From IMG/VR virus record IMGVR_UViG_3300037297_000135, positions 66,484 to 130,483 of that record: 64,000 nucleotides of DNA; one strand, written 5' to 3'. A program made the translations under genes and the position numbers. This DNA is from a virus. The notes under the pieces were generated by a model that saw only the letters and a list, made by a program, of their open reading frames with translations, did no database searches and was not told where the DNA came from. Positions 54,476-58,878 of the stretch are shown in pieces. The first letter of the stretch is position 1, and every line of letters starts with the position of its first letter.

Positions 54476-55032
54476 TATTTTTTCATAAATTCTTCAATTG
54501 ATATCCCACTCAATTCAATATCTTTTCCTTCAATCATTGTTTTCATAAAAACTTCCATATATTTATTTTTTAAATCATGCATTGATTTTTTCATGAATTC
54601 AACAAAAATTTCAACATCTTTTTTTTGTTGATTTTCAAAATTCATATTTTCTATGATTTTTAAATATACATCAAGTAATGTGTATTTATATGTTTCATCT
54701 GTATGTGGATATGGATTCGTTTTGCAATCAAATACATTGCATATATAAGGTTTGTTTGCATAAATCATACATTGATTGTTTTCTATAAATATACATTTAA
54801 AATTGCATTTGTGAGTTTTCATTAAATCTATATCAAGATTTATCCTTTGTTTTATATGCTCAATTATTTTTTTGTTGCATTTTGCTATTTTTATAAGATT
54901 ATGTAATTCTTCATATGTTATCACACTGCTTAAATCGCAGCATTCAACACAATTGATACACGATTTGGTTTTTACATTCTCAGAAGGTTGAATATCTTCA
55001 AATGTTATATCACAAAGTTTTTTTTCTTTCAT
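54472..55032 (-). CDS. YkgJ/CxxCxxCC cysteine-cluster protein (paralogue)
   Basis: CINCVECC...C.F...CMIYANKPYICNVFDC. Confidence 0.75.
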   Translation of the reverse strand: MKEKKLCDITFEDIQPSENVKTKSCINCVECCDLSSVITYEELHNLIKIAKCNKKIIEHIKQRINLDIDLMKTHKCNFKCIFIENNQCMIYANKPYICNVFDCKTNPYPHTDETYKYTLLDVYLKIIENMNFENQQKKDVEIFVEFMKKSMHDLKNKYMEVFMKTMIEGKDIELSGISIEEFMKKY

Positions 55033-55580
55033 ATTATATTCTCCTTAAATGTGATTTTATCAGTTGGTAGCTTACCACCACTTTTTTTTAGTAATTTGAA
55101 TTCATTATATTTTTTCAATCTATATTTTTGTAGTATGTATTTTAACTCAGGTCTTTTTTTGTCTGGTAATCTAGTTGAAAAAATAGGAAACATTTTTTCA
55201 TTTTTATATATTTTGTTAATATTATCAAATGGTATAAATAAATCAAATCCATTCAAAACTGCATCTTTTACTTGAAATCCATACATAAACTCATATTTAT
55301 TTTTATTTTTCGACAACATCCCAACAACATATTTTCCCCAAAAAACAAAAATAAATTCATCATTTCCTAAAAGATAATCTATTGAGACTTTAAAAAAGTT
55401 TGAAATTTTAATTAATGTACAACAATCTGTAATAGCATATTTATTTTCCCACATATTAATTTTTTGTGATTTTATATTTAGTTTTTCAGCAAGTTCTTTC
55501 ATTGTTAATTTTTTTGAAATTCTAAGTTTTCTTATTTTTGTTCCAAAAATCATTTTTTGTAAATCATATTGTGTATTCAT
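55029..55580 (-). CDS. XRE HTH fused to a HipA N-terminal-like domain
   Basis: Residues 1-72 XRE; then VG.L......YEF.Y...F...IY....MFP.FS.RLPD..R. Confidence 0.7.
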   Translation of the reverse strand: MNTQYDLQKMIFGTKIRKLRISKKLTMKELAEKLNIKSQKINMWENKYAITDCCTLIKISNFFKVSIDYLLGNDEFIFVFWGKYVVGMLSKNKNKYEFMYGFQVKDAVLNGFDLFIPFDNINKIYKNEKMFPIFSTRLPDKKRPELKYILQKYRLKKYNEFKLLKKSGGKLPTDKITFKENII

Positions 55581-55811: not shown

Positions 55812-56038
55812 GTTCAAATTTTGTGATTTTAAACACAAAACTTGAACTATTTTTGTGATTTATTTAATTCGTTTATATAAACGAAAGGGTGCTTATCCAT
55901 GCACCCTTTCTCACCTGTATTATTATTCTTTTTAATTTGATTTTACAATATATATCCTCCAAATGGATATATTTCATTGTCATCTTTTCATAAAAAAGAA
56001 ATTCTACAACATCTTTCAAATGTTGTTTTATTAATTGT

Positions 56039-56162
56039 AATTTTTATATATTAATAAAATATTTTTTATGTTTCTGCTCTTCCACTGAGCTACACTAGCA
56101 CATAAGCTAGTGACAGGATTTGAACCTATGACCTGAAACAATATTTAATTAAATATAAAAAT
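56039..56162 (-). ncRNA. circularly permuted tRNA-like RNA (YrlA/Y-RNA-like architecture)
   Basis: Order T arm - acceptor hairpin - D arm, closed by GTTTC/GAAAC and an extended AU-rich stem. Confidence 0.7.
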
Positions 56163-56267
56163 CTACATTTTTAAATCTAAATCTTTTGTGTTCGTACAAT
56201 AAATGTACAATCTAAATCTAAATCTAAGTTAAATTTATAAATCTAAATCTAACACATATTTATATTA

Positions 56268-57008
56268 TTATATTAATTTAGAAAAGTCAATATTATAATT
56301 TTGAACATCAATGTCATTTGCTTTGTTTTTAGCTTTTTTTACATCAACTAAAAAATTTTCAATTTTTTCTATATATGCATCTTTTTCATCTTGATATATA
56401 GCACTTGAAAAATATCTATCATTAAATTTTCCAACTGTTATTGGTCTTTCAACTTTATGTGTTACAGCTTGTTGAAATTCTGTTGCTGGTGAAGTTACTT
56501 GATATGTTTCAAATTTAGTTGTACGATTAACTATTTCAGTATGCTCAAATATATTTTTTTTATCACTTTGTTTCCAATCATAACTCATATCTAAAGTTGG
56601 AATATCTTTGAATATTTTTAAAAGCTTTCTTAGATTATTTTCAATGCTTAACAAAGTTGTTCCTGAAAATTTTCCTATTATTTTATTATTTAAACTTAAT
56701 TCAACTTTGTTTTCATTCCCAATTGTTTCTTCTATTGCTATTGTAGCATTTACATATTTATTGAATATTTTTATTAAATTGTTTAATACATCTTTTACTA
56801 TATATTTTACTTCTATTTTACTACAATCTGGTTCTGAAAGATATGCATCTTTGTAATTATCATCTGTTTCTGAATTTGGAATATAACTTCTGTATTTGCC
56901 TTCAAAATTACTGCTTGAATAAAAAATTTCTTCTTCTATTTCTTTTAATTTAGAAGTGAATTTTTCTTGCAATATATTTCTTTTTTCAATTGCTGGTAAC
57001 AATTTCAT
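56268..57008 (-). CDS. conserved hypothetical protein
   Basis: 246-aa ORF with GAGG RBS directly upstream of the permuted RNA. Confidence 0.65.
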   Translation of the reverse strand: MKLLPAIEKRNILQEKFTSKLKEIEEEIFYSSSNFEGKYRSYIPNSETDDNYKDAYLSEPDCSKIEVKYIVKDVLNNLIKIFNKYVNATIAIEETIGNENKVELSLNNKIIGKFSGTTLLSIENNLRKLLKIFKDIPTLDMSYDWKQSDKKNIFEHTEIVNRTTKFETYQVTSPATEFQQAVTHKVERPITVGKFNDRYFSSAIYQDEKDAYIEKIENFLVDVKKAKNKANDIDVQNYNIDFSKLI

Positions 57009-58293: not shown

Positions 58294-58878
58294 ATGGGAA
58301 TTAGTTTACAAAAAGGTCAAAAAATAGATTTAACTAAAACAAATCCTGGATTAAAAAATATATTTGTTGGTTTAGGATGGGATACTAAAAAATATGATGG
58401 TGGACATGATTTTGATTTAGATACACAAGCTGTATTAATAGGTGATGATGGAAAGGTTGTTAATAAAAAAACTAGTATAATATTTTACAACAACTTAAAA
58501 AATGAATCTGGTGCAATTCAACATTTAGGTGATAATTTGACTGGTGAAGGTGAAGGAGATGATGAACAAATAAAAATCAATCTTTCAATGGTTCCAGAAA
58601 ACGTTCAAAAAATTGCTTTTACTGTAACAATTCATGAATTTGATATAAGACAACAAAACTTTGGTCAGGTTTCAAATGCATTCATCCGTATTGTTAATGA
58701 AGAATCAAATGAAGAATTAATCAGATATGATTTAAGTGAAGATTTCAGCATTGAAACTGCTGTAGTTGTTGGTGAATTATATAGACATGAAAATGAATGG
58801 AAGTTTAATGCAATTGGTAGTGGACTTCAAAATGGGTTAAAAGGTGTATGTGATAATTTTGGTGCAAAATTAGATTAA
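58294..58878 (+). CDS. terD: TerD-family stress protein
   Basis: [45 protein letters not shown]. Confidence 0.95.

What the first reader, a model, noticed from the sequence alone, without database searches (positions are those of the whole stretch)
56039..56162. Circularly permuted tRNA-like RNA with Y-RNA (YrlA)-type topology and no Ro60 gene in view
Seen (minus strand): GTTTC-AGGTC-ATAGG-TTCAAAT-CCTGT-CACTAGC-T-TATGT-GCTAGTG-TA-GCTC-AGTGGAA-GAGC-A-GAAAC, i.e. the 3' half of a tRNA precedes its own 5' half. Acceptor, D, T and anticodon stems all pair, the acceptor is closed by a 6-nt loop, and there is no anticodon loop. The anticodon stem extends into an AU-rich duplex (AAATATT/AATATTT, TTAAT/ATTAA, TTTTTATAT/ATATAAAAA). 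Established: bacterial YrlA Y RNAs have this T-acceptor-D order on a long terminal stem and usually lie beside Ro60/TROVE genes; permuted tRNA genes are known from algae and archaea. No TROVE gene is in the window and I see no clear Ro-binding consensus. Inference: orphan phage tRNA mimic (decoy for anticodon nucleases, T-boxes or host Ro60, or a partner of the upstream 246-aa protein), or a permuted tRNA matured by RNase P/Z.
Basis: partly seen in the sequence, partly recalled or inferred. Interest (0 to 1): 0.85.

Follow-up and report, generated by a model that had tools for sequence, protein, structure and literature searches.

The report
Phage tRNA-mimic RNA beside DUF7873
The flagged stretch is a real back-to-front tRNA look-alike RNA from a widespread phage family that sits next to an unstudied protein gene (DUF7873), and the same phage also carries a very divergent Ro60-like gene, outside the window, with a look-alike RNA of its own.

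Summary
Window 56036-56167 (minus strand) folds as T arm, 7-bp loop-closed acceptor, D arm and a 5-6 bp closing stem on a long AU duplex (z = -5.5). It is the best Rfam YrlA match in the region, at 37 bits against a cut-off of 69. Re-permuted in silico, it is called a tRNA.

The gene 106 nt upstream is DUF7873 (PF25283). In 12 of 14 DUF7873 phages inspected, and in 2 metagenome loci, one or two such modules lie on the gene's strand, mostly just downstream. This scan has reported the pairing before on other DNA (246 notes, at least 145 genomes). I found no paper on it.

Two points are new here:
- This phage has only one module (B-type) after DUF7873. The A-type module lies 74 kb away, outside the window.
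- That A-type module lies 73 nt before a 501-aa protein with no Pfam match, whose predicted fold is Ro60 (D. radiodurans Rsr, E 4e-7, probability 1.0).

So "no Ro60" holds for the window but not for the genome.

My best reading is a YrlA-class tRNA-mimic sRNA partnered with DUF7873. The main rival is a Y RNA for the phage's own Ro60-like protein. No expression, processing or binding data exist.

The parts
56036..56167 (-). Whole tRNA-mimic element: a long AU-rich terminal duplex carrying the tRNA-like module
   Evidence: MFE and centroid fold, z = -5.49. YrlA covariance-model match at 56049-56151, 37.3 bits.
56113..56129 (-). T arm (ATAGG / TTCAAAT / CCTGT)
   Evidence: Sequence, fold, scanner.
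56093..56112 (-). Acceptor-like helix, 7 bp (CACTAGC / GCTAGTG), closed by the 6-nt loop TTATGT. The predicted RNase P site is 5' of G56099.
   Evidence: The cleavage site is inferred from M. smegmatis YrlA (PMC4201824).
56076..56090 (-). D arm (GCTC / AGTGGAA / GAGC), preceded by U8-A9 (TA, 56092-56091)
56070..56139 (-). Module core bounded by the anticodon-stem-like closing helix (GTTTC 56139-56135 with GAAAC 56074-56070). There is no anticodon loop.
   Evidence: Re-permuted, it is called a tRNA by ARAGORN.
56268..57008 (-). DUF7873 (PF25283) gene, 246 aa, 106 nt upstream on the same strand. It is the candidate protein partner.
   Evidence: Pfam E 3.5e-34. The family has 825 clusters. Modules lie next to the gene in 12 of 14 phages. 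AF2 model pLDDT 93 with no known fold.
56168..56267 (-). Spacer with TAGATT-type repeats that form two hairpins. It occupies the place where relatives carry the first (A-type) module. Weak sigma-70-like sites lie at 56290-56262 and 56181-56152.
   Evidence: The repeat cluster is unique in the genome.
55883..55910 (-). Intrinsic terminator, the likely end of the unit. The stretch 55911-56035 holds two more hairpins and a probably spurious 48-aa ORF.
   Evidence: The whole 396-nt intergenic stretch folds with z = -9.2.

Best explanation
The element is a small non-coding RNA of the YrlA (tRNA-mimicking Y RNA) class. It is a single-module member of the family encoded beside DUF7873 genes in phages.

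Shown:
- It has a complete tRNA 'top half' (acceptor, T and D arms with all elbow nucleotides), in permuted order, on a long stem.
- It lies 106 nt after a DUF7873 gene on the same strand and before a terminator.
- Diverse phages share this arrangement.

Inferred:
- It is transcribed with or just after DUF7873.
- It folds into an L-shaped tRNA body whose anticodon arm is replaced by a roughly 25-bp AU duplex.
- It is handled by tRNA enzymes. With a 7-bp acceptor, RNase P could cut 5' of G56099, followed by CCA addition, giving a two-piece tRNA-like molecule as in M. smegmatis YrlA.
- It acts in an RNA-protein complex with DUF7873, as a scaffold or decoy that engages tRNA-binding machinery.

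Whether that complex also involves the phage's own Ro60-like protein is open.
For: - Structure.
- DUF7873 identity.
- Linkage: permuted modules lie on the gene's strand in this phage, G003, NiceHouse, Vibrio D517 and K479, Rhizobium TM30, Klebsiella FBKp24, Ralstonia RSL1, Racecar, Fryberger, Phendrix and PA-SR01, and in metagenome loci L152 and L154. There are 17 strict hits in 72 kb of DUF7873 loci against 0.3 in shuffles.
- The two proteins of this phage and G003 share no BLAST similarity, yet both keep the RNA.
- Acceptor, T and D helices hold 3-5 different pair types per position across lineages.
- N-CCA follows the acceptor 3' strand in 9 of 18 DUF7873-linked modules. Regular tRNAs encode CCA in TM30 and in most Vibrio-phage genes seen, but not here or in G003, whose modules also lack it.
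- M. smegmatis YrlA, which has a 7-bp acceptor, is cut by RNase P and gains CCA (PMC4201824).
Against: - No transcript, processing or binding data exist.
- DUF7873 proteins are not basic (median pI 6.5) and have no recognisable RNA-binding or catalytic fold.
- The reverse link is weak. Many permuted modules in viral and metagenome contigs have no DUF7873 nearby and instead sit by TROVE or DUF2828 proteins, or by neither.
- Lak-C1 and My-WqHQDG show no module near the gene.
- NiceHouse tRNAs lack encoded CCA although its module 1 has ACCA.
- An earlier check in this scan priced the 'protein binds this RNA' claim at only 22/100.
- This phage also has a Ro60-like protein.
Confidence: 0.6

Rival explanations
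1. The element is a classical Y RNA (YrlA type) that serves the phage's own divergent Ro60-like protein (501 aa, G000:C1:48940-50445, outside the window). DUF7873 would then be a neighbour or an accessory factor.
For: - The 501-aa protein has invariant DxSxS and DGYEN (vWA MIDAS-like) motifs.
- Its predicted fold is helical repeat plus vWA.
- The 13 PDB matches at E<=0.001 are Ro60, Rsr or TROVE chains: 2nvo at E 3.9e-7, probability 1.0, plus a Thermus phage Ro60.
- A permuted A-type module lies 73 nt upstream of it.
- Ro-like genes are also detectable in three other DUF7873 phages: TM30 (TROVE), G003 and Lak-C1 (DUF2828/DUF7788).
- The base of the flagged stem (ATGTAGATTTT ... AATTACA) resembles the stems next to the Ro-like gene (ATGTGATTT[TC] ... 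AATTGCA).
Against: - The element is 74 kb from the Ro-like gene and directly behind DUF7873.
- The full 19-nt motif shared by the three Ro-adjacent stems is absent at up to 3 mismatches.
- The looser resemblance is within chance: about 0.6 expected extra matches.
- There is no GNCGAA motif.
- 10 of 14 DUF7873 phages have no Ro-like gene by the TROVE, DUF2828, DUF7788 or A3 profiles. Cryptic ones cannot be excluded.
Confidence: 0.22
2. The element has no dedicated protein partner. It acts alone in one of two ways: as a processing and stability element (an RNase P / 3'-end signal for the DUF7873 transcript), or as a decoy that soaks up host factors or defence toxins that recognise the tRNA acceptor and elbow.
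For: - It has a tRNA-like body with a 7-bp acceptor.
- Relatives lie in phage tRNA clusters, where transcripts are cut by tRNA enzymes.
- Modules also occur without DUF7873 or TROVE nearby.
Against: An ordinary tRNA would serve as a processing signal, so this does not explain the conserved permuted topology, the closing stem, or the tight pairing with one gene family across phyla.
Confidence: 0.12
3. It is a circularly permuted tRNA gene whose transcript is cut and re-ligated into a working tRNA.
For: The two halves make a full tRNA body when re-permuted. The 7 nt after the stem read A-U-AAA-A-A, which has U at the position corresponding to 33.
Against: - There is no conserved anticodon loop in relatives, and the flanks pair as a duplex.
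- No RtcB is found in this phage or in 13 other viral records with such elements.
- Splicing-endonuclease-based maturation of permuted tRNAs is known from algae and archaea, not bacteria (my own knowledge).
Confidence: 0.03
4. It is a non-functional remnant of two tandem tRNA genes, or a chance similarity.
For: The YrlA model also hits a junction of tandem tRNAs in this genome at 23.7 bits. In FBKp24 one module overlaps an annotated suppressor 'tRNA'.
Against: - The acceptor strands are complementary 7 of 7.
- The long terminal duplex is not explained by a deletion.
- There is no similarity to the phage's own tRNAs beyond universal motifs.
- The same topology is conserved with compensatory changes in distant phages.
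Confidence: 0.03

Closest known systems
YrlA, the tRNA-mimicking bacterial and phage Y RNA bound by Ro60/Rsr (Rfam RF02553; Chen et al. 2014, PMC4201824)
   Same: It has the same order (T arm, loop-closed acceptor-like helix, D arm) on a stem formed by the 5' and 3' ends. It is the best Rfam match. [quoted passage not shown]
   Different: It scores 37 bits against a cut-off of 69. It lacks the GNCGAAN0-1G motif. It is not adjacent to a Ro60 gene and sits behind a DUF7873 gene. The stem is almost pure A/U.
DUF7873-linked double tRNA-mimic RNA
   Same: It lies just downstream of a DUF7873 gene on the same strand and before a terminator. The module has a 7-bp closed acceptor and a B-type D arm (TA GCTC ... 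GAGC).
   Different: Relatives usually carry two tandem modules, an A-type with a Leu-like D arm followed by a B-type. Here only the B-type follows the gene, and the A-type lies 74 kb away beside a Ro60-like gene.
Circularly permuted tRNA genes
   Same: The 3' half precedes the 5' half, joined through the acceptor ends.
   Different: There is no anticodon loop and no bulge-helix-bulge motif. No ligase was found, and no mature tRNA is expected.
Two-piece tmRNA from permuted ssrA genes (from my own knowledge)
   Same: It is a permuted tRNA-like domain that could be processed at the acceptor into two base-paired pieces ending in CCA.
   Different: It has no mRNA-like tag region, it keeps a full D arm, and ARAGORN finds no tmRNA here.

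Membership tests
YrlA / bacterial Y RNA (RF02553) | T arm, acceptor-like stem-loop and D arm in that order on a terminal stem | tested here: met
YrlA / bacterial Y RNA (RF02553) | Reaches the Rfam gathering score (69 bits) | tested here: not met
   It scores 37.3 bits. Phage elements lying right beside TROVE genes (L060, L122) also fail the cut-off, so the threshold is strict for phages.
YrlA / bacterial Y RNA (RF02553) | GNCGAAN0-1G Ro-binding motif near the 5' end (PMC4201824) | tested here: not met
   The 5' strand at 56167-56140 contains only three G and no C, so the motif is absent.
YrlA / bacterial Y RNA (RF02553) | Encoded next to a Ro60/TROVE gene | tested here: not met
   No TROVE or DUF2828 gene is found in the genome by HMM. 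A Ro60-fold gene exists, but 74 kb away.
YrlA / bacterial Y RNA (RF02553) | Bound by Ro60 in vivo | not testable with these tools
   Needs immunoprecipitation.
DUF7873-linked tRNA-mimic RNA (informal) | Lies within about 1 kb of a DUF7873 gene on the same strand | tested here: met
   The gap is 106 nt. The same holds in 12 of 14 phages.
DUF7873-linked tRNA-mimic RNA (informal) | Two tandem permuted modules in one RNA | tested here: not met
   Only one module lies between the gene and the terminator, even with relaxed criteria. The A-type module is at G000:C1:48810-48867.
Permuted tRNA gene | An anticodon loop is recoverable and a ligation route is available | tested here: not met
   The flanks form a duplex. 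No RtcB is found. Re-permutation gives a tRNA body only when a loop is supplied.
Ro60/TROVE (for the 501-aa protein outside the window) | Helical-repeat ring domain plus a vWA domain with MIDAS residues | tested here: met
   DxSxS and DGYEN are invariant. The AF2 model has pLDDT 86. The 13 Foldseek PDB matches at E<=0.001 are Ro60, Rsr or TROVE chains, probability 1.0, TM 0.37-0.54. The Pfam TROVE HMM does not match.

The most novel reading that the evidence does not exclude
DUF7873 and these permuted tRNA-like RNAs form a previously undescribed ribonucleoprotein of phages. Its RNA is matured by RNase P and CCA addition into a two-piece, anticodon-less tRNA body, possibly aminoacylated. The particle would act on the translation or tRNA-surveillance machinery, or against tRNA-targeting host defences. 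It would work alongside Ro60-like proteins rather than depend on them.
Probability: 0.3. Interest if true: 0.85.

Novelty: new variant of a known kind. Interest (0 to 1): 0.7.

Why it matters
Y RNAs that mimic tRNA are known only as partners of Ro60. Here the same RNA design is tied to a different, very common phage protein family: 825 clusters at 50% identity, found in phages of Actinobacteria, Proteobacteria and Cyanobacteria and in low-GC and gut phages. It often lies inside tRNA gene clusters.

This would give a function to a large DUF. It would also explain unannotated 400-600-nt gaps in well-known cultured phages such as NiceHouse, RSL1, FBKp24, Racecar and PA-SR01, where the idea is directly testable.

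This genome adds a caution and a link. A Ro60-fold protein invisible to Pfam sits beside the sister module. So 'Ro-independent' claims based on TROVE HMMs need fold-level checks, and the DUF7873 and Ro systems may be connected.

Tried and rejected
- The search for related loci with the DUF7873 protein, with the DNA polymerase and with alignment A1 found nothing or could not run.
- The search for homologous proteins found only the protein itself.
I used cultured-phage records instead.
- DUF7873 fold searches gave no convincing relative: Foldseek PDB, VIA wide (best Z 8.6, generic helical), BFVD and the ESM Atlas.
- A specific RNA pattern found one unrelated tandem-tRNA locus.
- The second YrlA hit in the genome is a junction of tandem tRNAs.
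- A fixed-register test of the closing stem across lineages was weak: 57% paired against 29-55% when shifted. The stem's register varies between phages.
- Close relatives of the Ro-like gene show no strict permuted module nearby (2 of 25 loci). They have motif-bearing hairpins and tRNAs instead.
- hhalign of A3 against the G003 560-aa protein was not significant.
- The 2026 preprint on bacterial tRNA mimics covers other RNA families.
- No covariance model was built.

Full report
**1.

On the minus strand, window 56139-56070 reads as follows:
- closing-stem strand GTTTC
- variable loop AGGTC
- T arm ATAGG / TTCAAAT / CCTGT
- acceptor strand CACTAGC, loop TTATGT, acceptor strand GCTAGTG
- TA
- D arm GCTC / AGTGGAA / GAGC
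- A, then GAAAC

RNAfold reproduces all four helices and extends the closing stem into an AU duplex spanning 56167-56036. Energy is -35.4 kcal/mol, z = -5.49, and no shuffle folds as well. All nucleotides of the tRNA elbow and core triples are present: U8, A14, G15/C48, G18G19, A21, G46, T54-T55-C56 and A58.

ARAGORN and Rfam tRNA do not call it. Rfam YrlA is the best match at 37.3 bits against a cut-off of 69. Joining the 5' half, the 7 nt that follow it and the 3' half gives a sequence that ARAGORN calls a tRNA.

**2. Setting**

The window is the right half of a 130,483-bp IMG/VR virus record, rated complete by CheckV, with 23% GC and 15 tRNA genes. The element lies in a 396-nt intergenic stretch that folds strongly (z = -9.2). 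It sits between a 246-aa gene (56268-57008, minus strand) and a terminator (55910-55883). That gene is DUF7873 (PF25283, E 3.5e-34).

**3. The element belongs to a broader class**

A degenerate pattern scan of viral contigs, filtered for acceptor complementarity, gave 13 further elements with the same topology. None reaches the YrlA cut-off. Six of their records carry TROVE genes, two of them directly adjacent, so these are classical phage YrlA RNAs. One element sits by a DUF2828/DUF7788/vWA protein. One complete 145-kb phage (G003) has no TROVE gene but has a DUF7873 gene 630 nt from its element.

**4. The link with DUF7873**

The family is large: 825 clusters at 50% identity, all about 250 aa. 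I fetched DUF7873 loci from cultured phages of unrelated groups and scanned them with a strict topology scanner. The scanner requires a T arm, an immediately following 7/7 acceptor helix, two nucleotides, and a D arm containing GG.

One or two modules lie on the gene's strand in 12 of 14 phages. In most the modules sit in the otherwise unannotated gap just downstream of the gene:
- this phage
- G003 (module upstream of the gene)
- Rhodococcus NiceHouse
- Vibrio D517 and K479
- Rhizobium RHph_TM30
- Klebsiella FBKp24
- Ralstonia RSL1
- Arthrobacter Racecar
- Gordonia Fryberger and Phendrix
- Pseudanabaena PA-SR01

Lak-C1 and My-WqHQDG show none. The 13 fetched DUF7873 loci (L123-L135, 72 kb) hold 17 hits against 0.3 in shuffles. 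Two metagenome loci found through the RNA pattern also carry DUF7873 just upstream of modules.

The DUF7873 proteins of this phage and G003 have no BLAST similarity, so the pairing is old.

Modules come in two types:
- A-type: Leu-like D arm, 3-bp stem, loop like CAACTGGTAGA.
- B-type: TA GCTC ... GAGC.

Where both are present, the A-type comes first.

Across B-type modules each acceptor position shows 3-5 pair types. The scanner selects for pairing, so this shows diversity of sequence under a kept fold rather than an independent test. The closing stem, which the scanner did not select for, is only weakly supported in a fixed register, though each RNA folds with a closing helix.

**5. Hints of tRNA-like processing**

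N-CCA directly follows the acceptor 3' strand in 9 of 18 DUF7873-linked modules. Phages whose tRNA genes encode CCA (TM30 and most Vibrio-phage tRNA genes seen) have it in the module. This phage and G003 encode CCA in neither. NiceHouse is an exception.

M. smegmatis YrlA, the one YrlA with a 7-bp acceptor, is cut by RNase P and gains CCA (PMC4201824). All modules here have 7 bp. Processing is inferred, not shown.

**6. The protein**

The AF2 model is confident (pLDDT 93). It shows four long helices plus a roughly 20-residue-per-strand beta hairpin. No significant relative appears in the PDB, BFVD or the Atlas beyond its own family. There is no conserved catalytic-looking cluster (invariant residues are W145, G193 and N231). 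The family is not basic. A structural or scaffold role is more likely than an enzymatic one, and RNA binding is unproven.

**7. What is special in this genome**

Only one module (B-type) follows DUF7873, and TAGATT-repeat hairpins fill the usual place of the first module.

The whole-genome scan found an A-type module at G000:C1:48810-48867, which is 74 kb away and outside the window. It lies 85 nt after tRNA-His and 73 nt before a 501-aa ORF.

That ORF has no Pfam, PHROG or PDB sequence match. Its family alignment shows invariant DxSxS and DGYEN motifs. The AF2 model (pLDDT 86) is a helical-repeat domain plus an alpha/beta domain. The 13 Foldseek PDB matches at E<=0.001 are all Ro60, Rsr or TROVE chains, including D. 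radiodurans Rsr (E 3.9e-7, probability 1.0) and a Thermus phage Ro60.

So the phage encodes a cryptic Ro60-like protein.

Three stems sharing the motif ACTnAnTGTGATTT[CT]AGAA precede that gene. They carry tRNA-Lys, tRNA-His and the A-type module at their tips. Relatives of the gene have similar motif hairpins. The flagged element lacks this 19-nt motif. A looser resemblance at the base of its stem is within chance.

**8. Ro-like genes in other DUF7873 phages**

TM30 has a Pfam TROVE gene 6.5 kb from DUF7873. G003 has a DUF7788 / weak DUF2828 protein 2 kb away. Lak-C1 has one 21 kb away. Ten others have none by four profiles. Because the protein found here is invisible to those profiles, absence by HMM is not proof.

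**9. Verdict**

The element is real. It is a YrlA-class tRNA mimic, and it is best filed with the DUF7873-linked RNAs. This scan has reported that pairing on other DNA (246 notes in at least 145 genomes), and I reached it independently before reading those notes.

I found no paper on DUF7873. A 2026 preprint on bacterial tRNA mimics treats other families. Two possibly relevant papers are not held.

The mechanism (an RNP with DUF7873 and tRNA-enzyme processing) is inference. The main rival is service to the phage's own Ro60-like protein.

Noticed in passing
Outside the window: G000:C1:48940-50445 (L256:2441-3946): A 501-aa protein with no Pfam or PHROG match has a Ro60 fold (helical repeats plus vWA, with invariant DxSxS and DGYEN). 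Its family has at least 174 homologues of about 505 aa in metagenomes and 25 viral loci. It is a Ro60-like family that the TROVE HMM misses.
   Followed up: yes
Outside the window: G000:C1:48470-48960 (L256:1978-2440): Three consecutive long stems share ACTnAnTGTGATTT[CT]AGAA on the 5' strand. At their tips they enclose tRNA-Lys, tRNA-His and a permuted A-type tRNA-like module, just upstream of the Ro60-like gene. They could be Y-RNA-like stems carrying real tRNAs. The fold z-scores are weak (-2.8, -1.5, -2.6).
   Followed up: partly
Outside the window: L256:3951-4901: The gene after the Ro60-like gene carries an ARPP-1 domain (PF20208), a family described in ADP-ribose-related conflict systems (PMC9503650).
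   Followed up: no
window 58294-58878 (+); L125 and L130 ends; L088:5866-8085: A TerD gene lies 1.3 kb from DUF7873 here. 'Tellurite resistance' genes lie about 2.7 kb from DUF7873 in the Vibrio phages. A 740-aa protein with a weak TerD match sits beside an element that has neither DUF7873 nor TROVE nearby. This is a possible recurring neighbour.
   Followed up: no
window 56170-56250 (-): A cluster of TAGATT/GATTTA repeats forms two hairpins between DUF7873 and the element. The 12-mer TAGATTTAGATT occurs nowhere else in the genome.
   Followed up: partly
L127:3165-3300 (Klebsiella phage FBKp24): The annotated 'tRNA-Sup-TTA' shares its T arm and acceptor 3' strand with the second permuted module. 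So one 3' half could pair with either of two 5' halves. This is either a possible switch or an annotation artefact.
   Followed up: no
L282:681-2363 (G003:C1:107180-108862): A 560-aa protein with DUF7788 (45 bits) and a weak DUF2828 N-terminus lies 2 kb downstream of DUF7873, in a phage that has no Pfam TROVE match. The same domain pair flanks a permuted element in L100.
   Followed up: partly
G000:C1:44906-45008 (L002): The second YrlA covariance-model hit in the genome (23.7 bits) is the junction of two tandem tRNA genes. It is a useful false-positive benchmark for this model.
   Followed up: yes
window 55029-55580 (-): An HTH_XRE domain is fused to a HipA N-terminal (Couple_hipA) domain with no kinase nearby, 450 nt downstream of the unit.
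   Followed up: no
A-type modules in L124, L127, L128, L131, L133, L134, L147, L154: A-type modules have a tRNA-Leu-like D arm and almost always A at the discriminator position. LeuRS needs neither the anticodon nor, in E. coli, the long variable arm (my own knowledge), so leucylation is conceivable. This phage's A-type module has U there.
   Followed up: no
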